Below, piece after piece: positions 2,512-54,860 of a stretch of 64,000 nucleotides of DNA. The notes under the pieces were generated by a model. That model saw only the letters and a program-made list of their open reading frames with translations, was not told the origin of the DNA and did not search any database. The translations under genes and the position numbers were made by a program. Source of the stretch: Alphaproteobacteria bacterium. GTDB taxonomy: Bacteria > Pseudomonadota > Alphaproteobacteria > Rs-D84. The DNA lies in the NCBI GenBank assembly GCA_017549445.1, contig JAFYUU010000001.1, forward strand, positions 16,332 through 80,331, read 5' to 3'. Numbering within the stretch: position 1 is the stretch's first letter; the number at the start of each line of letters is the position of its first letter.

Positions 2512-2695
2512 GTGAACTGCAACACCCGTCTTTTACACCGGCCTGCACATCGACAGTCCGTGCCAGAATAGCACACCGACATAAAAAATCAAGTGGAAAT
2601 ATTATAATATTTTTATTTTTTACTTGCAAGACCTTTTTGATACAACAGGATTACTTTCCGCAAATCAATAGTTTTTTGTTTTTGCAAATTTTTTC

Positions 2696-2725
2696 TTGCA
2701 TGACATGCCATTTTTTGTCTACAAT
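2696..2725 (+). promoter_or_regulatory. Sigma-70-like promoter for the virB8-B9-B10 operon
   Basis: TTGCAT (2696-2701), 18-nt spacer, TACAAT (2720-2725), ending 25 nt upstream of the GTG start at 2751. Confidence 0.35.
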
Positions 2726-2750
2726 CGTTTTAATCAAGGGGGAGAAATCC

Positions 2751-3434
2751 GTGCAAAATCGTGTAAAACCGCCAATTTTATTATCTCGACTGTTGGGACT
2801 GGTGCTGTGTGCAACACTGGTGGTGGCGATTGCCATGCTGACCGTTTTGGACGGAATGTTTCCATTGAACAAGGCACAGGTATTCTTTTTAACCACCAGA
2901 CCACGTGACACAATCGAGGTTAAACTGACCGACCTGCCCCCGACAGATGAAAATTTGGTTAAATACAAACGGGCTTTTATTCGTGAATACATCAAGGCAC
3001 GCAATGAAATTGTGCCTGACGCTGATAAAATGCGGGCAAAATGGAACAATAATGCGGGGGCATTGGTCAGAAACTGGTCCAGCGATGCAGTATTCGAGGA
3101 TTTTAGCAACACACGTATGTGGAACGCAATTATGTATGATGGGGCGGGATTTGATTGGTCTTGTCCGGTGGGATTTGAACGGGGGGCAATCGTCGCCAGA
3201 AGCAGTGATGATGTGTATGCTGTAAAATTCCGCTATTTTTGTGCAAATAATGATGGACAGATTGCACCAAAAGATTATACAATCGTATTAAAGTTAGATA
3301 CTGATGATACAAGTGTGACCAAGTGGGCGGACAGGATAAACAACCCATTGGGGATTCGGGTCACAGAATACAAGGTAGAATCTGTGGACGGTGATAAAAG
3401 TGTCACAACAGATCCACTGGAATTTGATTTGTAA
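2751..3434 (+). CDS. virB8: Type IV secretion system protein VirB8-like
   Basis: N-terminal TM helix (LLSRLLGLVLCATLVVAIAMLTVL) followed by a periplasmic domain with VirB8-type motifs (KRAFIREYIKARNEI; NNPLGIRVTEYKVE near the C-terminus). GTG 2751 with an AGGGGGAG RBS is preferred over the ORF-track ATG at 2637. Confidence 0.75.
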   Translation: MQNRVKPPILLSRLLGLVLCATLVVAIAMLTVLDGMFPLNKAQVFFLTTRPRDTIEVKLTDLPPTDENLVKYKRAFIREYIKARNEIVPDADKMRAKWNNNAGALVRNWSSDAVFEDFSNTRMWNAIMYDGAGFDWSCPVGFERGAIVARSSDDVYAVKFRYFCANNDGQIAPKDYTIVLKLDTDDTSVTKWADRINNPLGIRVTEYKVESVDGDKSVTTDPLEFDL

Positions 3435-3461: not shown

Positions 3462-4988
3462 ATGACATTCGTGAAAAATTGGAAGTTAAACGTATCGGCA
3501 ATTTGCCTGGGGGTGATGTTGGCAATGCCTGCGGTGGCAATTGAATACGGTGTGCAGACCGCATGGGACAACCCAAATGCCAATATGGCAAGTGGCAGTT
3601 TGAAACCTGGCTATGCCCAACTGACCTGGTCGGCGGGTTCTGTTTTACCAATCAAATTACGCAACGGTATGGCGACAATGGTCAATCTGCCAAATGGTGA
3701 ACAGATTGCAGATATTGTCGCAGGAAATGAATCTTTGTTCGATATTTCTGCACAACAGGGCGATCGCACAATGTTTTTGTCGCCTAAACCAGATAATATG
3801 GGGTCGGATACAAATCTGATTGTGACGGGGAAGTCCGGAAACAGATATATCTTTTATCTGCGTAGCGAACCATCTAATTCCAGTGAAATTACATATTCCC
3901 AGGTTGATGTTATGCTGGACGGAAATGGCAAATTGCCAGTTATAGCGGGAGCAACGTCTGGCGGTGGGATGAATTCGGTCTTTACAAAAACAGCAAAAAC
4001 AACTGCGTCAAATACAGTTGGGGTGGATGGCGAAGATTATGGTTGGATTAAATCGATGAAAATCGATCCGTCTGAATTTAGATTTGACTTGGACATTTTC
4101 GTTCCAAACCCAGACGACTATGTTATCGCACCAGAACGTGTGTGGCGTGACAGAATCTTTACATATATTGACTTTGGCGACAAGGTTATTGCAATGACAC
4201 AAAGACCGGTTGTGTCGCTGATGGTTGAAGGTGGCGAATCGCCCGTGGGATTCCGCACAGATGGCGAAGATGGTCGTCTGTTGATTGTCGAAGCGGTTGG
4301 CGATATGGTTTTAAGAAGTGGCCAAAGAATTGTATGCATCAAGAAACGTGAAAAACCATTCTTGATTGCTGATACTGCGTCTGTTATGGCCCTGGCCGAG
4401 GCGAACGTTGCACAAAGTATGTTGTCAGGACAATCGTTGAACAATATTGCATACACGGCAGATATGGCCGCAATGAGTGCAGGCACTTCTTACACAGGGA
4501 CCCCAATGTTTATGGGCAATACTGCGACCGTCAATCCAATGACGGGGGCTGGAACATATATGCCCGCAGGATACATGGCCCCAGCCGTTGGTGGTGGAAA
4601 CAAAGCAATGACAATGTTGCCAATTCAACGTGATACCGCCGGTTCTTATTTGCCACAGTCAAATATTCCACTGATTACCAGCAATCAGAGTGGCGTGGCG
4701 GTTGAATTGAAATCCGACCCATCGGTCAAGGCATTAAATGATTACTGGACAGGGTTGATGGCGAAATTTAGTGGCGAAAGTGGCCAAGGAATACTGACCA
4801 AATATAAAGATATGGTGTTCTTTGCCGTGGACGAAGAAGGTGTGGGCGACCTGGGCGAAGGGGCATCGACCGCACGTCTGTATCGTCTGCGTATTGGGCC
4901 ATTTGCAGATATCACAACAGCACAGGAACTGTGTGATCAATTGTTGAAATTCAGCGGTGCCAGTTGCAGTGTCGTCAGAATTCAATAA
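3462..4988 (+). CDS. virB9: Type IV secretion system protein VirB9-like with C-terminal SPOR domain
   Basis: Signal peptide (...VMLAMPAVA). VirB9/CagX N-domain (LPIKLRNGMATMVNLPNGEQIADIVAGNESLFDIS...TNLIVTGKSGNRYIFYLRSE) and C-domain (APERVWRDRIFTYIDFGDK...RLLIVEAVGDMVLRSGQRIVCIKK). The last ~100 aa look like SPOR (ARLYRLRIGPFADITTAQELCDQLLKFSGASCSVVRIQ). Confidence 0.8.
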   Translation: MTFVKNWKLNVSAICLGVMLAMPAVAIEYGVQTAWDNPNANMASGSLKPGYAQLTWSAGSVLPIKLRNGMATMVNLPNGEQIADIVAGNESLFDISAQQGDRTMFLSPKPDNMGSDTNLIVTGKSGNRYIFYLRSEPSNSSEITYSQVDVMLDGNGKLPVIAGATSGGGMNSVFTKTAKTTASNTVGVDGEDYGWIKSMKIDPSEFRFDLDIFVPNPDDYVIAPERVWRDRIFTYIDFGDKVIAMTQRPVVSLMVEGGESPVGFRTDGEDGRLLIVEAVGDMVLRSGQRIVCIKKREKPFLIADTASVMALAEANVAQSMLSGQSLNNIAYTADMAAMSAGTSYTGTPMFMGNTATVNPMTGAGTYMPAGYMAPAVGGGNKAMTMLPIQRDTAGSYLPQSNIPLITSNQSGVAVELKSDPSVKALNDYWTGLMAKFSGESGQGILTKYKDMVFFAVDEEGVGDLGEGASTARLYRLRIGPFADITTAQELCDQLLKFSGASCSVVRIQ

Positions 4989-5024: not shown

Positions 5025-7478
5025 GTGGTGGACAACAGTATGAGCAAAATTAAACAGCAATTCAAAACGTGGCAGGCAAATACCCCTAAACGGGTGCAGT
5101 GGTTGTTGGTTGCGGTGGCGGGTGTCGTAATACTGATTTTATTGACACTGATTTTTATGCGTAAGGAAGAAAAAGTTATAGAAGAACGTGAAGCAATTCC
5201 CGCAGAACTGAAATTTAATCCAGGCGACAGTATAAACTGGCCCGATGTGTTGGTGGGCGAAACCAAAGAGCAGACAATAAAAATTTCTGCAAATGTCCCT
5301 GTTAAAATCGCCAAGGTGAATTTAACACAGGATATAAAAGGACTGACCGTCAAACAGACGTGTGCCAGCATCGCAGAAATCAGTGCAGAAACTGCATGCA
5401 CGGTGCGTCTGATTTATACCCCAACCGCACAGATGACACCGGTGGTGGTGCCGCTGATGTTGGATTGGTATCCGATTGGGGATTCGCCAGACATGAATAA
5501 AATGGCAAAAATTACAGTTGTGCTGGGGGCCCAAATGCCCGAGGTTCAGCAACCTGCCCCGGTGCCGGTTAAACCTGTTGTCGATACACCAACAGAAGAA
5601 GACAACACCCCCGTGTTTTACGATGAAGAACCAGAAGACGAGGAAGAATATTACAGACAAGTCCCCGTTAAAAAAACACCCGCAATCGCACAAGAAAATC
5701 CATTTGACGAATACGAACAAGACGAGGAGGATATACCACAAATCCCGTCCGAGGCGTGTTCGGATTTTGCAATGCCTGGATACGGGACATCGGGTCGGCA
5801 GACGGGTTGGATTAAACCTGTTGATGGTGCCTATTATTTTTATCCTTTCTCGGATACAGAGTGTAAAAATCCAACGGGGGTCTATAACCCAGATAACGGA
5901 ATTATCACTGACATCAAAAGCAAAGGTAAAAAAATTGGAACAGATGCAGAACATGTCGGCTTTGTCGGTATGTTGGGCGGGGCGATTCCAAAACTGTCTA
6001 ACCCAGTAAAATCCGCAGGTGTCAATCGGGCAAAGCAATTGACCACACAGGAATTGGGAACAATGGCAAGTTCCAGTGCTGGGGGCGGTATGGCACGTAT
6101 GGGGCAAGACGGGTTCGAGGCAATGAATGGCCTGATCAAAGAAGAAATTGATAAGGAAATTTATCTGGGGTCAGCAAGCGATAATTCACGTGTTTTGGCA
6201 TCAAAACAATACGACAGACAATTTATTCTGCGTCAGTATAAACCAATTCCTGCGACAATCGTGTCAGAAATTCGTGCCGATCCCGAAGCATTGAGAAACA
6301 ATCGCCTGCCTGTGCGTGCAACGGTTGATAGAAACGTATATTCAGACGATGGACGCAACGTGATTATACCAACGGGAACGTTGCTGTTGGGGTATATCTC
6401 GGGCGAATTGCCAGGGCCATACACATCAATCGGACGTATGGATATTAACTGGTATCAGTTTATACTGCCAAATGGGGTAGAGTTTAATTTCAAACAAGGA
6501 ACTGCACCATTTTCAGGCGATGCACAGGGTCGTTCTGGTATCCCAGGTTATGGTAGCACCGACTATATGGAGCAATTCTTTATGCCGATGCTGACCGCAA
6601 TTGTGCCGGCGGCGGTGAATCTGATTGCACCGGTCAGTGATGCGTTCGTAAATCAAATTGACCTGGATAACAATACAGTGGTGCAAAGCGGAACCGTGCG
6701 TTCGTCAGAAATGGCAAAGAACGAGATTATTACCGCATGGAATCAGGTTGCACAAAAACTGATTGTCGATATGATGGATAACACAACACCACCATTTTCA
6801 ATCGCAGCAGGAACACGTATAACCGTTTATTCGCCAGTGGATTTGGTCGCATCTTGTGGCGAGGAAGGAAGTGGTAAAAAATGTTCGTTAGGGTATGCGG
6901 ACAGTAATCGTTGGGACGAATGGCACAACAATGCAGATCTGAAGCAAGACGGTTCGTGGGTTGGTCAGGTTCGCAGTTTCAATTTGGCAAAATATTGCGT
7001 CAAGGACAATAACGGCAGGTGGGATATACAGCCAAATAGCGAAACACAGATAGCAAAAGAAGGATACGATTACAGATCTGTGTTATTCTATTGCCAATCA
7101 TTGAACTATCAGGCGATAAACAATGCCAAGCAAGATGCGGTCTATCAAAATCAACAGCAACAGTTCGCATCGCAGGAATATAATACCCAATCTACTGCCG
7201 GGGTGTCGGGGGCACAGACGGGTATTGTTGGCAATAAAACTTATAACGAACAAGTTTTGGGATTGACGTATAACGAAGATGGATCAATCGAAAATCCGTT
7301 TGAAGACAAAAAAGATGAAGTCACGGAAACGGTCGAGGTCGTCACATGCGATGGCGGTATAATGCCAGATGCAAATGGATGCTGTCCGGGGGAAACATAT
7401 ACCGATATGGGCGATCAAGGATTTAACTGTTGTCCAGATGCAGGTGGCGATTGTTTCCCACCAATCATAAATAACTGA
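5025..7478 (+). CDS. virB10: Type IV secretion system protein VirB10/TrbI-like, extended
   Basis: N-terminal TM helix, then a Pro-rich linker (PEVQQPAPVPVKPVVDTP). TrbI/VirB10 domain at aa ~395-607 (LPVRATVDRNVYSDDGRNVIIPTGTLLLGYISG...RMDINWYQFILPNGVEF...DAQGRSGIPGYGSTDY...AAGTRITVYSPVDL). A 210-aa C-terminal extension follows. The start may be ATG 5040, preceded by an AGGTGG RBS. Confidence 0.8.
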   Translation: MVDNSMSKIKQQFKTWQANTPKRVQWLLVAVAGVVILILLTLIFMRKEEKVIEEREAIPAELKFNPGDSINWPDVLVGETKEQTIKISANVPVKIAKVNLTQDIKGLTVKQTCASIAEISAETACTVRLIYTPTAQMTPVVVPLMLDWYPIGDSPDMNKMAKITVVLGAQMPEVQQPAPVPVKPVVDTPTEEDNTPVFYDEEPEDEEEYYRQVPVKKTPAIAQENPFDEYEQDEEDIPQIPSEACSDFAMPGYGTSGRQTGWIKPVDGAYYFYPFSDTECKNPTGVYNPDNGIITDIKSKGKKIGTDAEHVGFVGMLGGAIPKLSNPVKSAGVNRAKQLTTQELGTMASSSAGGGMARMGQDGFEAMNGLIKEEIDKEIYLGSASDNSRVLASKQYDRQFILRQYKPIPATIVSEIRADPEALRNNRLPVRATVDRNVYSDDGRNVIIPTGTLLLGYISGELPGPYTSIGRMDINWYQFILPNGVEFNFKQGTAPFSGDAQGRSGIPGYGSTDYMEQFFMPMLTAIVPAAVNLIAPVSDAFVNQIDLDNNTVVQSGTVRSSEMAKNEIITAWNQVAQKLIVDMMDNTTPPFSIAAGTRITVYSPVDLVASCGEEGSGKKCSLGYADSNRWDEWHNNADLKQDGSWVGQVRSFNLAKYCVKDNNGRWDIQPNSETQIAKEGYDYRSVLFYCQSLNYQAINNAKQDAVYQNQQQQFASQEYNTQSTAGVSGAQTGIVGNKTYNEQVLGLTYNEDGSIENPFEDKKDEVTETVEVVTCDGGIMPDANGCCPGETYTDMGDQGFNCCPDAGGDCFPPIINN

Positions 7479-7759: not shown

Positions 7760-8110
7760 ATGAACAATACACACGCAATATCTTTACACGCAGAAAAATT
7801 CCAAAGTGCAGAACAGATTTGGTTCTGGTTTCTGTATTCACGTGCAATTCGCAACAGTTTCGTGCGACAAAACAATAACACCAGACGAAAGATATGTGAA
7901 CTGGTTGATGTAGAAACACTGATTACTAAACTGTATCTGGCAGGCCGATTAAACGATGAACAACTGGTCGTGATGAAAAAATATGGTGATAAAAGACGTG
8001 CACCACATCAATATATCTGGACAGAAAACAGTGACGCAGACAAATGGAAACGGGCGATGGAGGTGCTGGAATCAGCATGCAAGGAACGTGGTTGGATAGA
8101 AGAACAATAA
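7760..8110 (+). CDS. Hypothetical small protein (116 aa), possible HTH-like region
   Basis: Strong RBS (AAAGGAGAGAAGA ATG). No antisense gene competes for the locus. The segment RLNDEQLVVMKKYGDKRRAP weakly resembles sigma-70 region-4 / LuxR-type helices. No firm family assigned. Confidence 0.6.
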   Translation: MNNTHAISLHAEKFQSAEQIWFWFLYSRAIRNSFVRQNNNTRRKICELVDVETLITKLYLAGRLNDEQLVVMKKYGDKRRAPHQYIWTENSDADKWKRAMEVLESACKERGWIEEQ

Positions 8111-13869: not shown

Positions 13870-15114
13870 CTAGTGAAAAACAAAACTGTCAATGCCGTGT
13901 TCTGATGCCGAGTTTTTCAGATGCTGGGCAAAATTCTCGCTTAGGCCATTGGCACGAACACGATACATACCGTTGGGGGCCGTTTCGACAACCGCATCTA
14001 TGCCCAAGGTATTTTTGACACGGCCCGCATGGGACATAGCGGTGTTATATGAAGAAAACGCACCAAACTGAACCCCTGTTGTGCCACCAGAATTTGTCGT
14101 AGACGCAGACACGACATTGTTTGTCGTTGCATAAGACGGCATTGCATTGGCAGATGCCGTGTTGTATGCACCACTGAACGTTTGGGCGGGTTGTGGGTTT
14201 GGATACGCCACAGGTTGCGGTTGTGGCGGAACAGGTGCAACCGGTTGGGCATCATAGGTTGCCGCAGGCGGGGGTGGCGTGTGCGTTGCAGGCGACGTTC
14301 CCAATATCGCAAATCCTTTGTTCAACAACTGGGCCGCAACGTTGGCACGGACATCCTTGCTTTCTGCACCCAAAACAACCGACATTAAATGAGAATTGCC
14401 ACGATGGGCCGTTGCAACCAATGAATACTTGGATTTCTTGGTATAACCCGTTTTCATACCATCGCACCCATTAAACGACCCCAGCAGACGGTTGCCGTTG
14501 GTATAGGTTTTCCCGTTATAGGTCCAGGTCTTGATTCCAAAATATTTCCAATACTGGGGGAAATGTTTATAGACCGCCATAGACAACAGGGCAATATCAC
14601 GTGCCGTTGACATGTGGTCGTCATTTGGCAGACCTGATGAATTCTCGAAATTAGTGCGGGTTAAACCGATTTCGTGGGCAACACGGGTCATCAGTTGGGC
14701 AAAGGTTTCTTCCTGGCCACCCTTTAAGTTTTCCGCCAGCACACGTGCAATGTCGTTTGCACTGGTGACGGCAACGGCCTTGATCGCATCTTCGACACGT
14801 ATCTTACTGCCTGCACTGACCCCCAGTTTTACTGGTTCGGCACTGGCCGCAGATTTGGAAACAATCAGATAGTCATCAAGCGATAAACGACCATGTTCCA
14901 GTGCATCAAACGTTAAATATAGTGTCATTATCTTGGTCAATGATGCAGGATAATTTAATTCGTTGGCGTTTTCCTGGTATAAAACACGCCCCGTGTCCAT
15001 ATCCGCAACCAAGGCGGCACGATACTGGGCACCAAAAAGTGGGGTCGCAAACAAACACGCAAATAAAATTAGAAAACGCATTCTCATCAGGAACAGTTTA
15101 GTAAATTTTATCAC
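13870..15114 (-). CDS. D-alanyl-D-alanine carboxypeptidase (PBP5/6, peptidase S11) with C-terminal SPOR domain
   Basis: SxxK (ASLTKIMT), SxN (TSAND) and KTG (KTGYT) motifs. A Pro-rich linker is followed by a SPOR-like end (GVQFGAFSSYNTAMSHAGRV...GMYRVRANGLSENFAQHL). Confidence 0.88.
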   Translation of the reverse strand: MIKFTKLFLMRMRFLILFACLFATPLFGAQYRAALVADMDTGRVLYQENANELNYPASLTKIMTLYLTFDALEHGRLSLDDYLIVSKSAASAEPVKLGVSAGSKIRVEDAIKAVAVTSANDIARVLAENLKGGQEETFAQLMTRVAHEIGLTRTNFENSSGLPNDDHMSTARDIALLSMAVYKHFPQYWKYFGIKTWTYNGKTYTNGNRLLGSFNGCDGMKTGYTKKSKYSLVATAHRGNSHLMSVVLGAESKDVRANVAAQLLNKGFAILGTSPATHTPPPPAATYDAQPVAPVPPQPQPVAYPNPQPAQTFSGAYNTASANAMPSYATTNNVVSASTTNSGGTTGVQFGAFSSYNTAMSHAGRVKNTLGIDAVVETAPNGMYRVRANGLSENFAQHLKNSASEHGIDSFVFH

Positions 15115-18784: not shown

Positions 18785-18861
18785 AAGAAGCCCCCTTATG
18801 GAATTTTATCATAGGAAATTTTCCGTTGCGGTGCAATCAAATAAATTCCTATACTGGCCGT

Positions 18862-20775
18862 ATGCAGAATTTGGCGAAATATCAAGATAATAATTGGTTT
18901 GGATGGGGCACAATCGCATTGGCGGGCGGTGCCGGGTTATACTTTGCAATGCAACACGAACCGTATATCCCATACCCATACATCTTGGCCGTTTGTTTGT
19001 GTGCGATTACTGCATGGGGACGAGTGCCAAAATTTTTGCGGATTATCACAACATTTTTATTCGGATTTGTTTATGCGTTTATCTTTACAAATCAGATAAA
19101 CACTCCGCAGATAAATTCCACAATGCGAAATGCTGAAATAGTCGGTCAGGTGTATAAGACAGATATCGCAAACAATAAAAAACGTATTTATATCCAAACA
19201 GATGACAATATGCGTGTGCGTCTGACCGTGGGCGATGATATCACAGTCCCCAACACAGGCGATACAATAAAGGCAACTGCAACACTGTTTCGACCAGCAG
19301 GCACATACGCACCAGAAACATTTGATTATGCACGATGGGCATACTTTAACAATCTGACGGCAACGGGGTATATTTCGGACTGCGTTATTACAAGGCCTGC
19401 ACGTGGGTTCAATATAAATTCCTGGCGTAATAAAATACATGAACGGGCGAATTCTTATCTGGTTGATGCGTTGGTGTTGGGGTATAAAAATGCGGTGCCT
19501 GACACAGACAGTAAAATTTGGACCACAGCTGGCGTGGGACACGTGTGGTCAATCAGTGGTTTTCATATGACACTGGTCGGTGGGTGGATTTTTGCAATAT
19601 TCTTTTTAATTTTTCGTGCAATACCGTATGTCACCAGACGTATCCCTGCCAGAATCCCAGCGATTATATGTGCATGGATTGGACTGGGGATTTATTTGTT
19701 TATTTCTGGGATAGATGTGGCAACGGTGCGTGCTTTCTTGATGACAACGTTGGTGTTTATGGCGTTTATTTTGGGACGAAGGGCATTTTCAATGCGAAAT
19801 GTATGCTTGGCATTTTGCATTATATTTTTATTAAATCCACACTATGTTATGCAACCTGGGTTTCAACTGTCTTTTTCCGCAGTGTTTGGACTGGTCTGGT
19901 TCTGGGACGAACGGCCGTTCGTTCAACGCAGTTTCACACAAAAGGTTTTACATGCAATTTATGCAACAATTATAACGTCTGGGGTTGCGACCGTTTTTAC
20001 CGCACCGTTCGTTATTGCACATTTTTATTCAATACCAATTTATGGACTGATTGGGAATCTGATATTACTGCCGATATTTTCATTTGCAATTATGCCGTGT
20101 GTTATGTTTGGGGCAATTGGGATTGATGTGGGTGTCAAATGGGCACACGGTATTTATGATTGGGCTTTGACAATAGCAACACAAATTTCCGACCTGCCAA
20201 TGGCAACTGTCACAATGCCACACACTCCAAATTCTGCGACGGTGTGTTTTATTCTGGGGCTGGCCACGATTATATTTATCAAAAATGCAAAGTATAAAAT
20301 CAATCATATAATCGGATGGGCTATCATCTGTGTGGGCGTGGGGATTGTTGCACTGCAAAGCAAGCCCATATTTATGTCAACGTTTGATAACACAGTGGTG
20401 GCATTCAGAAATGATAAAGACAATTTAATTTTTAACACAACCAGTTCTGCAAATCACTATTTTGCGTTTGATACATTTTTGCAACTAAATGGTCAACCCA
20501 CAGATTCAACACGACACAAACAAAAGTGCAAACGTGGTGTGTGCGAATTTACAAATGGCACAATTAAAATTGTTCAGGTATCACGATTTATTCCTTTGAT
20601 GAAAAATCTGAACAATTGGTGCAATGACAAGAGCATAACATATATTGTATCGCACCTGAAAATTGATGCACCAAATTGCAATCACAAAATTTTAAGTGGC
20701 GGAATTATTATCTATGATAACGGACAAATTAAACGGACGAAGTATGGTCGTCGCTGGCATAATCAGCACGGATAA
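18862..20775 (+). CDS. comEC: ComEC/Rec2-family DNA internalisation channel protein
   Basis: Polytopic protein whose core block TAGVGHVWSISGFHMTLVGGWIF matches the ComEC competence domain. No HxHxDH metallo-beta-lactamase motif was seen in the C-terminal region. Start uncertain (TTG 18826 or ATG 18862). Confidence 0.75.
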   Translation: MQNLAKYQDNNWFGWGTIALAGGAGLYFAMQHEPYIPYPYILAVCLCAITAWGRVPKFLRIITTFLFGFVYAFIFTNQINTPQINSTMRNAEIVGQVYKTDIANNKKRIYIQTDDNMRVRLTVGDDITVPNTGDTIKATATLFRPAGTYAPETFDYARWAYFNNLTATGYISDCVITRPARGFNINSWRNKIHERANSYLVDALVLGYKNAVPDTDSKIWTTAGVGHVWSISGFHMTLVGGWIFAIFFLIFRAIPYVTRRIPARIPAIICAWIGLGIYLFISGIDVATVRAFLMTTLVFMAFILGRRAFSMRNVCLAFCIIFLLNPHYVMQPGFQLSFSAVFGLVWFWDERPFVQRSFTQKVLHAIYATIITSGVATVFTAPFVIAHFYSIPIYGLIGNLILLPIFSFAIMPCVMFGAIGIDVGVKWAHGIYDWALTIATQISDLPMATVTMPHTPNSATVCFILGLATIIFIKNAKYKINHIIGWAIICVGVGIVALQSKPIFMSTFDNTVVAFRNDKDNLIFNTTSSANHYFAFDTFLQLNGQPTDSTRHKQKCKRGVCEFTNGTIKIVQVSRFIPLMKNLNNWCNDKSITYIVSHLKIDAPNCNHKILSGGIIIYDNGQIKRTKYGRRWHNQHG

Positions 20776-52604: not shown

Positions 52605-54773
52605 TTATTGTTCCTGGTTATTTTTTTCTTCTTCCATGTCAGCAGGACGTTTCCAGTCACGGATATCTTGAATCCAAGAATCTTGCATACACTGTTCACG
52701 CAGGGCGGCAGAATTCACCTTGGATTTATCGCCGTATAAGGTTCCGGCTTCAATGCTGGTCTTGATAACAGCAACCATATCAGATGTTGCACCCGTGCCG
52801 TTCAAGATTTCGTTCAATGTCACGATGTTGCGACATGTGTTTGTTGTGTAATCTTGGGTGTTCAGACATTCGGTATTATCAGGTTCATCAATAACGGCCT
52901 TGAACTGTGCCATGGACGGATTACAAATCATTTCTTCATAGCAGTGTGGAACGTTTGATATCTGGGCACAATATGTCTTGATACGTGCAGTTGGCCAGTT
53001 TTCATTACTGCTGGAAACTTCTTCATAGCAATCGTAGATTTCACTTAAACATTCGTTAAAGTTTGTGCCGGCCGTGACCGCCTTGCTTAGAATCGTTTCG
53101 ACTTCTTCGTTATAGAATTCCAAACGTTTTTGTTGCAGGGCCTGTTGGGCGGCAACCTTTTGATAGCCAATGTTCTGGGCCGTGGCACGCAGTTGTTCAC
53201 CATATGCATCACAGTCCGCATTCGCATCCAGTGCATATTTCTGCATAATACTGCGACGAGCATCGGCAACGGGCTTACGCAAACTGTAATACGGGTCACC
53301 AGATGCAGACGTATAACCAAAACATGTCGCAGAATTTGACAATGTATAGTTAGAATTTGGTGTAATGAAATTCAATGTGTATTCGCCAGTATTATTGCTG
53401 GTCACACTGATAACACTGTTATAGTTATATGGACACTGGGATTGACCATTGCCACAGTATGTGTTGTTTGGACGACCGCAGGCCTCGTAAATGCCGTTAA
53501 AGCAACTGTCCAGAACACGATTACATACGTTGTTATGTGCATATTCGAACAGTTCATAACCCCACGTTTCCGCCAAGGAATCCTTTATCGCATCATCTGT
53601 TCCCAGATTTGCAATCGTGCCACCTATACCAGACAAACCACCAACAATGTCGGTCAGTGTGCTGAACGCATCGGTCAATTTATCCCTGTCATCGGTCAGA
53701 ATTGTGATTGTTTGTTCCTTGGCATCGGCCCAGGCCTGCAATGAGGCCAAGATATCAGAACTGTTGCCGTCTATGTTATCGATATCAAATCCAAAATTGT
53801 TCCCCGAGGATTCACAATATTTTGGTTTAGCACAGGTTTCGGCCCCTTCGTAGATACCGTGACTGGTGCACCATTTGTATGCATCGGAATCGACACTGCC
53901 CGTGGTCCAAGAACCGTCTTTATATGCATCCTGCCAAGAAACGCAGTTCATAACCTTTTCTGCATCGGTCAGCATAAACGCCTGGGATACGTCTTTACCC
54001 TTGTTCGCAATCAACAGGGCCAATTCACCAGAAACCTTAATCAATTCTTCGTTTGCGGTTTCAAGGGCGGCTTCGGCCTCGGCAAATGCTTTGACACGAC
54101 CGGCACATGCACAACGGCGTTGGGCCGCATTACGTGCCGTGCAAATTTCGTCCATACAGGTATAATATGATTCCATACAGTTGCTGTATGCATCGGCAGA
54201 AATCAGACCAGTTGTAGGATCGATAATATTGGAATAATTACCCGTGTATAATTTGTTCGACAGGTATGTATATGTGTTTGATGTTGCAATCGCCTTGGAC
54301 CCACGGATTGCACTGCCCTGGTGGGAAACACGTGCAACATTGGTGGCGTCACGACCACGAACCGCACGATTTGATGCAGATACCGTCTGAGGGGTTACGG
54401 TGCGTGTTGCCGTGCGAGATACGACATTACGGGCAACCGTTGCACGTGACGCATTTGACACATTACCACGATTATTAGAACGAGATACAACATTACGAGA
54501 TGCAACCGAACGGGAAGGTGTTTTTGCATTCGCTGTTGTGCGATTTACAGTGTTTGCAGTGGTGTTATTGCGTGGACTGGCCCGACCTGAACGTGCAGGG
54601 GTGCCCGCACGATTTGCCTGGGGACCATAGAACACGTCGTTCATTGGGGCAATCGGATCCGCCCACACCGAACGCATTGACATCAATGTCGAACAAGTTA
54701 AAAATGCACCACCCAGCAAAAACACCGTGCCAATGGCATTTTTACAACAATCTGTTATTTTACGAGTTTTCAT
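52605..54773 (-). CDS. Secreted cysteine-rich protein, paralog C (divergent)
   Basis: Start MKTRKIT at 54773 with a GGAGGGAAGGA RBS. Signal peptide (...LMSMRSVWA), an R/S/T/N-rich region with SRNVVSR repeats, then CMESYYTCMDEICTARNAAQRRCAC and many further Cys. Confidence 0.8.
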   Translation of the reverse strand: MKTRKITDCCKNAIGTVFLLGGAFLTCSTLMSMRSVWADPIAPMNDVFYGPQANRAGTPARSGRASPRNNTTANTVNRTTANAKTPSRSVASRNVVSRSNNRGNVSNASRATVARNVVSRTATRTVTPQTVSASNRAVRGRDATNVARVSHQGSAIRGSKAIATSNTYTYLSNKLYTGNYSNIIDPTTGLISADAYSNCMESYYTCMDEICTARNAAQRRCACAGRVKAFAEAEAALETANEELIKVSGELALLIANKGKDVSQAFMLTDAEKVMNCVSWQDAYKDGSWTTGSVDSDAYKWCTSHGIYEGAETCAKPKYCESSGNNFGFDIDNIDGNSSDILASLQAWADAKEQTITILTDDRDKLTDAFSTLTDIVGGLSGIGGTIANLGTDDAIKDSLAETWGYELFEYAHNNVCNRVLDSCFNGIYEACGRPNNTYCGNGQSQCPYNYNSVISVTSNNTGEYTLNFITPNSNYTLSNSATCFGYTSASGDPYYSLRKPVADARRSIMQKYALDANADCDAYGEQLRATAQNIGYQKVAAQQALQQKRLEFYNEEVETILSKAVTAGTNFNECLSEIYDCYEEVSSSNENWPTARIKTYCAQISNVPHCYEEMICNPSMAQFKAVIDEPDNTECLNTQDYTTNTCRNIVTLNEILNGTGATSDMVAVIKTSIEAGTLYGDKSKVNSAALREQCMQDSWIQDIRDWKRPADMEEEKNNQEQ

Positions 54774-54860
54774 ATATCCTTCCCTCCGCATCTGGTATCG
54801 CCCAGAAATCCGGTCTTTTTACACGCACACGTGGGACGCAATGCGTGTATACTTTGTATA

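What the first reader, a model, noticed from the sequence alone, without database searches (positions are those of the whole stretch)
4689..4988. VirB9 fused to a C-terminal SPOR (septal peptidoglycan-binding) domain
After both canonical VirB9 domains and a low-complexity linker, the last ~100 aa read like a SPOR domain (VAVELKSDPSVKALNDYW...ARLYRLRIGPFADITTAQELCDQLLKFSGASCSVV). SPOR domains bind denuded glycan strands at division sites. VirB9 is part of the outer-membrane core complex. I do not recognise a VirB9-SPOR fusion as a described architecture. It would tether the T4SS core directly to peptidoglycan, possibly at the septum or new pole.
Basis: partly seen in the sequence, partly recalled or inferred. 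Interest (0 to 1): 0.65.

Follow-up and report, generated by a model that had tools for sequence, protein, structure and literature searches.

The report
VirB9 with a SPOR-like tail
The outer-membrane core protein (VirB9) of a type IV secretion system in a tiny-genome gut bacterium really does end in a tethered SPOR-type cell-wall-binding fold, an unannotated add-on shared by a whole branch of alphaproteobacterial VirB9 proteins, but its key sugar-binding glutamine is replaced by an acidic residue, so the proposed targeting to the division septum is doubtful.

Summary
ORF 3462..4988 (+) encodes a 508-aa VirB9: CagX domain at residues 53-295, an 87-aa low-complexity linker, then a ~100-aa C-terminal domain. 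That domain passes Pfam SPOR's gathering score. AlphaFold2 models it as beta-alpha-beta-beta-alpha-beta (pLDDT 85), and its three best PDB fold matches are SPOR domains (DedD, RlpA). The gene lies in a virB8-virB9-virB10 cluster between rplA/secE and yidC. The organism is 'Candidatus Enterousia', a gut alphaproteobacterium with a genome under 1 Mbp.

The fusion is not peculiar to this genome. About 80 species keep it under purifying selection. Metagenomic VirB9s down to ~35% identity carry it. So do VirB9s of complete virB/virD4 operons on plasmids of cultured Sphingosinicella and Erythrobacter. Annotations call all of them plain 'TrbG/VirB9', and I found no paper describing the fusion.

The functional reading is only partly supported. 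The position of the most conserved glycan-contacting Gln (FtsN Q251, RlpA Q270) is Glu415 here, and Glu or Asp in 33 of 35 family members. Q251E is the published binding-defective FtsN mutant. Most likely this is a periplasmic wall-tethering module with altered or weakened ligand specificity, not a canonical septal denuded-glycan reader. I rate it a new variant of a known kind, of moderate interest.

The parts
2637..3434 (+). virB8 (265-aa ORF from a TTG; the true start may lie further downstream)
   Evidence: Pfam VirB8 PF04335, E 1e-11, res 51-247. Conserved upstream of virB9 in 74 of 80 related loci.
3462..4988 (+). virB9 with C-terminal SPOR-like domain (508 aa plus stop)
   Evidence: ORF list. 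CagX and SPOR Pfam hits. 1560 homologues; the best 120 are 503-528 aa long and cover 97-100% of the query.
3462..3539 (+). probable Sec signal peptide (res 1-26, ...AMPAVA|IE); no lipobox
   Evidence: Read from the sequence. No predictor was run, so this is an inference.
3618..4346 (+). VirB9/CagX region (res 53-295), covering both VirB9 domains. The C-terminal domain (res ~196-320) is almost invariant between species.
   Evidence: PF03524 E 8e-21. For res 196-320: amino-acid identity 0.99, dN 0.016 against dS ~1.6 in 79 species.
4422..4682 (+). low-complexity flexible linker (res 321-407)
   Evidence: 76% G/A/T/S/M/P/N/Q, 4.6% charged. Least conserved part of the protein (identity 0.68, dN 0.278). 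pLDDT below 50 for the 21 linker residues (387-407) included in the first AF2 model. The spacing between the VirB9 region and the tail differs between relatives, inferred from their lengths and tail start positions.
4683..4985 (+). SPOR-like domain (res 408-508): b1 411-419, a1 422-437, short helix 446-451, b2 452-459, loop, b3 471-481, a2 484-498, b4 503-507
   Evidence: Pfam SPOR 26.2 bits, above GA 21. AF2 pLDDT 85.2. Foldseek top three are DedD and RlpA SPOR. hhalign against a canonical SPOR alignment: probability 80%, E 1.3e-5, over b3-a2-b4.
4704..4706 (+). Glu415 codon (GAA), at the place of the canonical SPOR glycan-binding Gln (FtsN Q251 / RlpA Q270)
   Evidence: Family column: E 24, D 9, Q 1, V 1 of 35. 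Pfam coordinates, assuming no gaps, place Q15 of the carboxypeptidase SPOR fragment, P0125 Q409 and P0128 E451 at the same profile position. The register was not confirmed by hhalign of the first halves.
4884..4892 (+). Arg475-Leu476-Arg477 on beta3, matching FtsN R285 / RlpA R309 and R311 (the basic patch for the MurNAc lactyl group)
   Evidence: hhalign pairs LYRLRIGP with WNRVVIGP. Column counts: R475 R26/H6, R477 R30 of 35. Residue roles from PMC6895207.
4932..4967 (+). Cys491 (alpha2) and Cys502 (just before beta4): invariant pair, probably a periplasmic disulfide
   Evidence: 35 of 35 in the family alignment. Invariant in A1 and A5. The disulfide itself is an inference.
5025..7478 (+). 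virB10 (817 aa), with long N- and C-terminal extensions
   Evidence: Pfam TrbI PF03743 E 9.8e-18, res 403-606; NCBIfam T4SS_VirB10. Present in 80 of 80 related loci.

Best explanation
The gene encodes a genuine VirB9, the outer-membrane core-complex subunit of a VirB-type type IV secretion system. Its C-terminus carries a diverged SPOR-fold domain on an ~87-residue flexible linker that follows the VirB9 C-terminal domain.

The fusion is old. It is shared by a branch of alphaproteobacterial VirB9 proteins, including plasmid-borne virB/virD4 operons, and was inherited vertically in the reduced-genome gut lineage Ca. Enterousia.

Most likely mechanism (inferred, not shown): after Sec export, the VirB9 domains assemble with VirB10 under the outer membrane. 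In solved VirB systems there are about 14 copies per machine; that number comes from my knowledge of those structures and was not tested here. The disulfide-stabilised SPOR-like domains would then hang down into the periplasm on their linkers and contact the peptidoglycan sacculus. This would give multivalent anchoring or positioning of the core complex in the wall.

The canonical Gln of the glycan cleft is a conserved Glu or Asp, while the two beta3 arginines are kept. The ligand is therefore probably not bound in the FtsN/RlpA manner. Possibilities are a weak, avidity-dependent hold on glycan strands or a shifted specificity. Septal or polar targeting via denuded glycans is possible but is not the favoured reading.
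For: Domain identity:
- Pfam CagX, and SPOR above its gathering score.
- Relatives align to nearly the whole SPOR profile: P0125 positions 5-76, P0128 positions 3-76.
- 12 of 104 VirB9 representatives hit SPOR, and no other wall-binding family appears.
- AF2 model with pLDDT 85 and b-a-b-b-a-b topology.
- Two independent models both give DedD and RlpA SPOR as the best PDB folds.
- hhalign to canonical SPOR: probability 80%, E 1.3e-5.

Selection:
- dN 0.12 against dS ~1.9 for the domain. It is more constrained than the VirB9 N-domain (0.17) and the linker (0.28).

Tether:
- The linker is low-complexity, poorly conserved and predicted disordered over the part modelled; its length appears to differ between relatives.

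Periplasmic location:
- An invariant Cys pair and an N-terminal signal-like segment.

Breadth and ancestry:
- 291 GTDB species genomes encode a relative. The best 80 were kept, and 72 of them match from residue 1-5 through residue 508.
- The local HMM finds the domain in 33 of 150 VirB9 50%-cluster representatives. These include most of the 40 nearest to the query in their VirB9 part, plus five further down the ranking.
- The Sphingosinicella and Erythrobacter plasmid VirB9s carry it inside virB2-virB11/virD4 operons.

Context:
- virB8-9-10 synteny next to core genes holds in 80 loci.
- The organism makes peptidoglycan and has a canonical SPOR protein.

Arginines matching RlpA R309/R311 are retained.
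Against: - No binding or localisation data exist.
- Only the second half of the domain is recognisable as SPOR by sequence.
- Profile searches against PDB sequences found no SPOR.
- Foldseek E-values are modest (about 3e-3), and generic ferredoxin-like folds follow closely.
- The key Gln is Glu or Asp, the same change as the binding-defective FtsN Q251E.
- The aromatic residue after the G-[SA] motif (RlpA F274) is absent.
- A role with no peptidoglycan contact at all therefore cannot be excluded.
- The rest of the T4SS (VirB4, VirB11, VirD4, pilins) is not in the 64-kb window or within 10 kb in 80 relatives. A working secretion machine in Enterousia is assumed, not shown.
Confidence: 0.6

Rival explanations
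1. This is a canonical SPOR function. The domain binds denuded glycan strands made by division amidases, so new T4SS core complexes are recruited to the septum and inherited at new poles.
For: The domain is SPOR-homologous in fold and sequence. The arginines matching the RlpA lactyl-binding patch are conserved. All characterised SPOR domains bind denuded glycans (abstract of 10.1101/2022.07.01.498525). About 14 copies per machine (my knowledge of VirB structures, not tested here) could make up for low single-site affinity. One family member (P0125) still has Gln.
Against: Glu or Asp replaces the most conserved cleft residue in 33 of 35 members. Q251E in FtsN reduces septal localisation and denuded-glycan binding. 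The aromatic residue equivalent to RlpA F274 is missing. The same genome keeps a canonical VQFGAF SPOR on another protein, which shows the canonical motif is retained where needed.
Confidence: 0.15
2. The domain is a SPOR-derived fold that has lost peptidoglycan binding and now works as a protein-protein module inside the secretion machine. It might contact the extended VirB10, VirB8 or a VirB7-like lipoprotein, or form a peripheral ring as the N0 domain of Xanthomonas VirB7 does.
For: The cleft Gln and the aromatic residue are lost, while other surface positions are strongly conserved (W429, L425, the Cys pair). The first half of the domain has drifted beyond SPOR recognition. VirB10 in this cluster has unusual long extensions. 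No VirB7-like gene was recognised in the window.
Against: The two beta3 arginines of the glycan-binding face stay conserved. A long, poorly conserved linker fits reaching a distant, non-stoichiometric target such as the wall better than a fixed docking site. SPOR is the only Pfam family matched, and no protein-interaction precedent for this variant was found.
Confidence: 0.17
3. The SPOR resemblance is convergent or chance. The tail is an unrelated small ferredoxin-like alpha/beta domain.
For: Pfam aligns only 36 of 76 profile positions. PDB sequence profiles find nothing. Foldseek E-values are only ~1e-3, and ribosomal S6, CutA and PII-like folds follow.
Against: The score is above the curated Pfam threshold in the window protein and in several relatives, and some align almost full-length. 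The YRLRIGP...A..lC..L...G..C.VV motif matches the SPOR consensus, with hhalign probability 80% and E 1.3e-5. SPOR domains rank 1-3 out of 350,542 chains for two independent models, each with probability 1.00.
Confidence: 0.06

Closest known systems
SPOR domains of FtsN, DamX, DedD (E. coli) and RlpA (P. aeruginosa); Pfam PF05036
   Same: About 75-100-residue b-a-b-b-a-b fold. YR[LV]R[IV]GP beta3 motif, with arginines matching FtsN R285 / RlpA R309 and R311. Attached to its parent protein by a long disordered linker. Periplasmic. RlpA is likewise anchored at the outer membrane and reaches the wall from that side.
   Different: The parent protein is a secretion-system core subunit, not a division protein or lytic transglycosylase. 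The beta1-alpha1-beta2 half is not recognisable by sequence. The cleft Gln is Glu or Asp, and the following aromatic residue is absent. There is an extra short helix and a 10-15-residue acidic loop between beta2 and beta3. The family-specific Cys pair links alpha2 to beta4, whereas in FtsN (from my own knowledge) the disulfide joins C252 to C312.
Canonical VirB9/TrbG proteins (A. tumefaciens VirB9, pKM101 TraO; from my own knowledge about 290 aa)
   Same: CagX/VirB9 Pfam domain covering both VirB9 domains. Encoded between virB8 and virB10. In the plasmid relatives it is part of a complete virB2-virB11/virD4 operon.
   Different: About 190 extra C-terminal residues (linker plus SPOR-like domain). 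NCBIfam equivalog scores are far below their cut-offs (54 bits against 217.7). In Enterousia the cluster is chromosomal, sits among core genes and has no other T4SS genes nearby.
Peptidoglycan-binding modules attached to other envelope-spanning machines: OmpA-like DotK in Dot/Icm, TagL/TssL extensions in T6SS, GspA/ExeA in T2SS, LysM protein TsaP at the type IV pilus secretin, MotB (all from my own knowledge, not tested here)
   Same: The general principle of anchoring a trans-envelope nanomachine to the sacculus through a dedicated wall-binding domain.
   Different: Those use OmpA-like, PF01471 or LysM domains, usually on accessory proteins. Here a SPOR-derived domain is fused in cis to the conserved core subunit VirB9, and whether it binds the wall is unproven.
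CagX (H. pylori VirB9 homologue; from my own knowledge 522 aa)
   Same: A VirB9-family protein of about 500 aa, much longer than the canonical form. It gives Pfam family PF03524 its name.
   Different: From my own knowledge, CagX's extra sequence is N-terminal and not SPOR-like. The only Helicobacter entry among the plasmid matches, a H. suis TrbG/VirB9 protein, aligns with res 56-317 of the query and not with the tail.

Membership tests
SPOR domain (Pfam PF05036) | Sequence match to the family profile at or above the curated gathering score (21 bits) | tested here: met
   22.9 bits for the whole protein and 26.2 bits (E 1e-5) for res 410-508, but only profile positions 41-76 align. Relatives P0125, P0127 and P0128 align over positions 3/5/9-76 at 14-19 bits. 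12 of 104 VirB9 representatives hit at E<=0.01.
SPOR domain (Pfam PF05036) | [quoted passage not shown] | tested here: met
   AF2 pLDDT 85.2, pTM 0.76, elements E-H-(h)-E-E-H-E. Foldseek top three are DedD 6ztg and RlpA SPOR 6i09/6i05. All three have probability 1.00; target-normalised TM is 0.68-0.69 for the two RlpA entries and 0.27 for DedD, whose PDB chain is 193 residues (same ranking set).
SPOR domain (Pfam PF05036) | Conserved Gln in beta1 (FtsN Q251 / RlpA Q270), which hydrogen-bonds the MurNAc lactyl and GlcNAc N-acetyl groups | tested here: not met
   Glu415 in the window. E 24, D 9, Q 1, V 1 in 35 family members. Importance of the Gln and the effect of Q251E. The register rests on the predicted beta1, the [IV]-x-L-G-[SA] pattern and Pfam coordinates. 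hhalign of the first halves was not significant.
SPOR domain (Pfam PF05036) | Basic residue(s) on beta3 facing the cleft (FtsN R285; RlpA R309, R311) | tested here: met
   R475 (R 26, H 6 of 35) and R477 (R 30 of 35). hhalign pairs LYRLRIGP with FtsN WNRVVIGP.
SPOR domain (Pfam PF05036) | Binds denuded (peptide-free) glycan strands and localises to the septum in an amidase-dependent way | not testable with these tools
   Needs biochemistry or microscopy. The sequence evidence (Q to E/D) argues against canonical affinity.
VirB9/TrbG (Pfam PF03524 CagX; TIGR02781) | Match to the VirB9 family profile | tested here: met
   PF03524 75.2 bits against GA 34.2. The TIGR02781 equivalog scores only 54 bits against a cut-off of 217.7, so it is a family member but not an equivalog of Ti-type VirB9.
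VirB9/TrbG (Pfam PF03524 CagX; TIGR02781) | Encoded with virB8 and virB10 (core-complex neighbours) | tested here: met
   VirB8 PF04335 upstream and TrbI/VirB10 PF03743 downstream. Conserved in 74 and 80 of 80 loci.
Complete VirB/D4-type T4SS | Presence of the ATPases VirB4, VirB11 and VirD4, plus VirB2/3/5/6 | tested here: inconclusive
   None among the large ORFs of the 64-kb window or within +-10 kb in 80 related loci. The rest of the genome could not be searched. The plasmid relatives do have the full set.

The most novel reading that the evidence does not exclude
A whole branch of alphaproteobacterial type IV secretion systems, from conjugative-type plasmids of Sphingomonadales to the chromosomal system of sub-1-Mbp gut symbionts, carries a ring of tethered SPOR-derived domains whose cleft Gln has been switched to a conserved acidic residue. 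That switch would retune the domain to a different wall feature, for example de-N-acetylated (positively charged) or otherwise modified glycan. The machine would then be sited or locked at a specific wall landmark, or would even grip the wall of a partner cell. This would be the first SPOR variant with a changed ligand code and the first cis-encoded wall-reader on a T4SS core subunit.
Probability: 0.12. Interest if true: 0.75.

Novelty: new variant of a known kind. Interest (0 to 1): 0.45.

Why it matters
How VirB-type secretion systems pass through, and are fixed in, the peptidoglycan layer is poorly understood. How some of them end up at particular cell sites is also unclear. A wall-binding-type domain fused directly to the core subunit VirB9, conserved across many species, gives a concrete handle on both questions. 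The same architecture occurs on plasmids of culturable Sphingosinicella and Erythrobacter, so it is experimentally accessible. The natural Gln-to-Glu/Asp change also offers a test of how SPOR ligand recognition can evolve. For Ca. Enterousia, a suspected obligate symbiont or parasite with about 900 genes, the near-invariant VirB9 C-terminal domain marks this system as central to its biology. The find also exposes an annotation gap: of the 120 closest database homologues, only one carried a precomputed SPOR hit.

Tried and rejected
- Profile searches of the tail against PDB sequences (shallow alignment A1 and diverse alignment A5) found no SPOR, only noise.
- hhalign of the family profile against single sequences (the window carboxypeptidase SPOR, FtsN SPOR) was weak, although the register was consistent.
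- MAFFT of three SPOR sequences misaligned because of the domain's internal b-a-b repeat. I rebuilt the alignment as A7.
- hhalign restricted to the first halves (A8 vs A9) was not significant, so the E415 = Q251 equivalence is not proven by sequence profiles.
- The first AF2 run, with only close homologues, gave a mediocre model (pLDDT 62). It was superseded by the run with the diverse alignment.
- The Pfam scan of all 150 representatives exceeded the residue limit and was repeated on 104.
- Cluster look-ups of 20 distant representatives gave almost no taxonomy.
- I considered that the three tandem Pfam-less ORFs at 48217..54791 might be VirB6 paralogues, as in Rickettsiales. I rejected this: they are secreted, Cys-rich proteins, not multi-pass membrane proteins.
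- I looked for a VirB1-type lytic transglycosylase among the hypothetical ORFs of the two plasmid operons and found none.
- A ComB-like DNA-uptake reading was considered, because virB8-10 alone resembles comB8-10, ComEC is in the window, and one relative is labelled ComB9 by JGI. It was not pursued: VirB10 scores better than ComB10, and the nearest cultured relatives are plasmid transfer operons with relaxase and VirD4.
- The Enterousia genome paper in Microbiology (2023) is not held.
Full report
**1. What is at the coordinates**

Window 4689..4988 is the last 99 codons plus the TAA stop of a 508-codon ORF at 3462..4988 on the + strand.

Pfam finds CagX/VirB9 (PF03524, E 8e-21, residues 53-295). 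It also finds SPOR (PF05036) at 22.9 bits on the whole protein and at 26.2 bits (E 1e-5) on residues 410-508 alone. The curated cut-off is 21 bits. Only profile positions 41-76 of 76 are aligned. NCBIfam sees a distant VirB9: 54 bits against an equivalog cut-off of 217.7.

Between the VirB9 region and the tail lies an 87-residue stretch (res 321-407). It is 76% G/A/T/S/M/P/N/Q and 4.6% charged.

The flanking genes are virB8 (2637..3434, PF04335) and a long virB10 (5025..7478, 817 aa, with the TrbI domain only at res 403-606). The cluster sits between tRNA-Trp/secE/nusG/rplK/rplA on one side and yidC on the other.

**2. Is the tail a SPOR domain?**

An AlphaFold2 run using only close homologues gave a mediocre model (pLDDT 62), but it already had b-a-b-b-a-b topology. 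A second run on res 408-508 used 21 diverse family members. It gave pLDDT 85.2 and pTM 0.76, with strands at 411-419, 452-459, 471-481 and 503-507 and helices at 422-437 and 484-498, plus a short extra helix.

Both models, searched against 350,542 PDB chains, returned the same top three: the SPOR domains of DedD (6ztg) and P. aeruginosa RlpA (6i09, 6i05). Each has probability 1.00. Target-normalised TM is 0.68-0.71 for RlpA. E-values are 1e-3 to 7e-3. Generic ferredoxin-like folds come next.

A family profile compared with a small canonical SPOR alignment gave hhalign probability 80% and E 1.3e-5 over beta3-alpha2-beta4. That canonical alignment held four Enterousia carboxypeptidase tails, FtsN (sequence verified against 1uta) and CwlC.

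Sequence-profile searches against PDB sequences found no SPOR. The first half of the domain is not recognisable by profile comparison.

My conclusion is that the tail is homologous to SPOR, with a strongly diverged N-terminal half.

**3. Distribution**

The big protein database holds 1560 homologues. The best 120 are 503-528 aa long, 74-99% identical and cover 97-100% of the query. Those that carry a name are called 'TrbG/VirB9'. Only one has a precomputed SPOR hit.

Among GTDB species representatives, 291 genomes encode a relative. The best 80 are titled Candidatus Enterousia or unnamed gut alphaproteobacterial, proteobacterial or unclassified bacterial MAGs, 73-80% identical. In 72 of them the match runs from residue 1-5 through residue 508. 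They have the same rplA-virB8-virB9-virB10-yidC neighbourhood.

Enterousia belongs to order Rs-D84. Its genomes are under 1 Mbp and lack the TCA cycle, respiration and flagella. They do encode RodA, MreB and MrdA. An obligate symbiont or parasite lifestyle has been proposed for the lineage (PMC12306168).

Across 79 species the tail has dN 0.122. The VirB9 N-domain has 0.169 and the linker 0.278. The C-domain has 0.016, which is 99% amino-acid identity. dS is saturated at about 1.6-1.9 throughout. The tail is therefore under clear purifying selection.

In the 50%-identity representative library, 482 VirB9 relatives were found. A local HMM of the tail, iterated to convergence, recognises it in 33 of the 150 best representatives, and in 23 of the 91 that are at least 380 aa long. 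These include most of the 40 nearest to the query in their VirB9 part, plus five ranked further down, so the fusion is probably old. Another ~20 of the 91 show only the terminal 'lC..l...G..C.v' motif. In all, 49 of the 91 end in a two-Cys tail. Pfam SPOR is hit by 12 of 104 representatives. In P0125, P0127 and P0128 the alignment spans almost the entire profile.

The tail also occurs in cultured bacteria. The nearest plasmid VirB9s are from Sphingosinicella sp. BN140058 p1 (430 aa) and Erythrobacter aureus (432 aa). Both end in the same domain: 25.4 and 21.7 bits with the family HMM, and Pfam SPOR is the only, sub-threshold, Pfam hit to the tail. Both lie in full virB2-virB11/virD4 operons with a topoisomerase gene just downstream. 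The Sphingosinicella operon also has a MobA/MobL relaxase.

**4. Does it work like FtsN or RlpA SPOR?**

The RlpA-glycan structure paper names these contacts: Q270 (side chain to the MurNAc lactyl group and the GlcNAc N-acetyl group, 'highly conserved'), the backbone of residues 271-276, F274 (CH/pi contact), and the basic patch R302/R309/R311. It equates them with FtsN Q251, S254, W283, R285 and I313 (PMC6895207).

In the VirB9 tail the beta3 motif L473-Y-R475-L-R477-I-G-P aligns with FtsN W283-N-R285-V-V-I-G-P. R475 and R477 are conserved (R 26 and H 6; R 30, out of 35).

Beta1 reads V-A-V-E415-L-K-S-D. The family consensus is I-[AS]-[IV]-E-L-G-[SA]-x, where canonical SPOR has V-Q-x-G-[AS]-F. 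The column at 415 is E 24, D 9, Q 1, V 1, and no aromatic residue follows.

Pfam's coordinates, assuming no gaps, put Q15 of the carboxypeptidase SPOR fragment, P0125 Q409 and P0128 E451 at the same profile position. This register is not confirmed by profile-profile alignment.

[quoted passage not shown] It also states that Q251E reduces septal localisation and glycan binding of the isolated FtsN SPOR domain (10.1101/2024.05.13.594014). The natural state of the VirB9 tail therefore equals a known loss-of-affinity mutation, and it is conserved as such.

The same window encodes a D-Ala-D-Ala carboxypeptidase (13870..15114, minus strand) with a canonical VQFGAF SPOR that passes Pfam's cut-off (22.7 bits). 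The lineage thus keeps the canonical motif where it is needed.

**5. Best explanation and rivals**

I favour a periplasmic tether. VirB9 domains assemble under the outer membrane. By analogy with solved VirB core complexes there would be about 14 copies; this number is my own knowledge and was not tested here. Each copy dangles a disulfide-stabilised SPOR-like domain on a flexible linker towards the sacculus. The result would be multivalent anchoring or positioning, with a ligand mode different from, or weaker than, canonical denuded-glycan binding. My confidence in the whole statement is 0.6. For the domain identity alone it is about 0.9.

Three rivals remain:
- A SPOR-derived protein-protein module that has lost wall binding (0.17).
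- A chance or convergent ferredoxin-like fold (0.06).

Whether Enterousia has the rest of a T4SS could not be tested. No ATPase or pilin genes lie in the window or within 10 kb in 80 relatives.

**6. Comparison with known systems and novelty**

The domain passes the Pfam and fold criteria for SPOR but fails the conserved-Gln criterion. I therefore call it SPOR-like (SPOR-derived) rather than a canonical SPOR.

Wall-binding modules on other trans-envelope machines are well known from my own background knowledge: OmpA-like, LysM and PF01471 domains in Dot/Icm, T6SS, T2SS, type IV pili and flagella. The principle is therefore not new.

A SPOR-type domain fused in cis to VirB9 does not appear in the searchable literature. 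No paper combines 'VirB9' with 'SPOR domain'. The 14 listed of the 16 papers that combine 'SPOR domain' with 'type IV secretion' show no sign of it in their titles or abstracts. The two papers that hold both the words SPOR and VirB9, and the one that holds SPOR and TrbG, do not concern it: I opened one and it cites VirB9 only in its reference list, and I judged the others by title and abstract. Public annotations ignore it.

Verdict: a real, conserved and widespread but unannotated architecture, and a new variant of a known kind. Interest is moderate. It is raised by the conserved Gln-to-acidic switch and by experimental tractability in Sphingomonadales plasmids. It is lowered by the lack of any functional evidence.

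Noticed in passing
window 5025..7478 (+): VirB10 is 817 aa, but the TrbI domain covers only res 403-606. It has a ~390-aa N-terminal part with an acidic and Pro-rich stretch. It also has a ~210-aa C-terminal extension ending in a Cys-rich tail (...VTCDGGIMPDANGCCPGETYTDMGDQGFNCCPDAGGDCFPPIINN). Neither extension has a significant Pfam match.
   Followed up: partly
window 48217..50382, 50436..52505, 52605..54791 (all - strand): Three tandem paralogous ORFs of 689-728 aa. Each has a signal peptide, a Ser/Thr/Arg-rich N-region and a Cys-rich body, and none has a Pfam hit. They could be surface or secreted proteins of this reduced-genome symbiont. They are not VirB6-like.
   Followed up: partly
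window 13870..15114 (-): A Peptidase_S11 D-Ala-D-Ala carboxypeptidase with a Pro/Gln-rich linker and a canonical C-terminal SPOR domain (VQFGAF...MYRVRANGL). The SPOR scores 22.7 bits when scanned alone, and it was missed at E<=1e-3 in the whole-protein scan.
   Followed up: yes
window 3462..4988, res 196-320 (4047..4421): The VirB9 C-terminal domain is about 99% identical in amino acids across 79 species even though synonymous sites are saturated (dN 0.016, dS ~1.6). This is an unusually tight constraint for a secretion-system outer-membrane subunit.
   Followed up: partly
window 18826..20775 (+): ComEC-type competence channel (PF03772 plus DUF4131) in the same window as a stand-alone virB8-9-10 cluster. 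A ComB-like DNA-uptake role for the T4SS genes was considered but not tested.
   Followed up: no
window 7760..8110 (+): A 116-aa ORF directly downstream of virB10 with no Pfam match. Its conservation in relatives was not examined.
   Followed up: no
L081 5307..18174 and L082 2239..14998 (Sphingosinicella and Erythrobacter plasmids): Complete virB2-virB11/virD4 operons whose VirB9 carries the same tail. No SLT/VirB1-type lytic transglycosylase was detected among the hypothetical ORFs in or next to these operons.
   Followed up: partly
representatives P0163, P0165, P0170, P0173, P0194, P0199, P0204 and others: Many more distant, high-GC VirB9 homologues of 400-630 aa end in a two-Cys motif ('..A..lC..l...G..C.v..') that the family HMM matches only weakly. 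In all, 49 of 91 long representatives have such a tail. The module may therefore be much more widespread than the 33 firm hits.
   Followed up: partly
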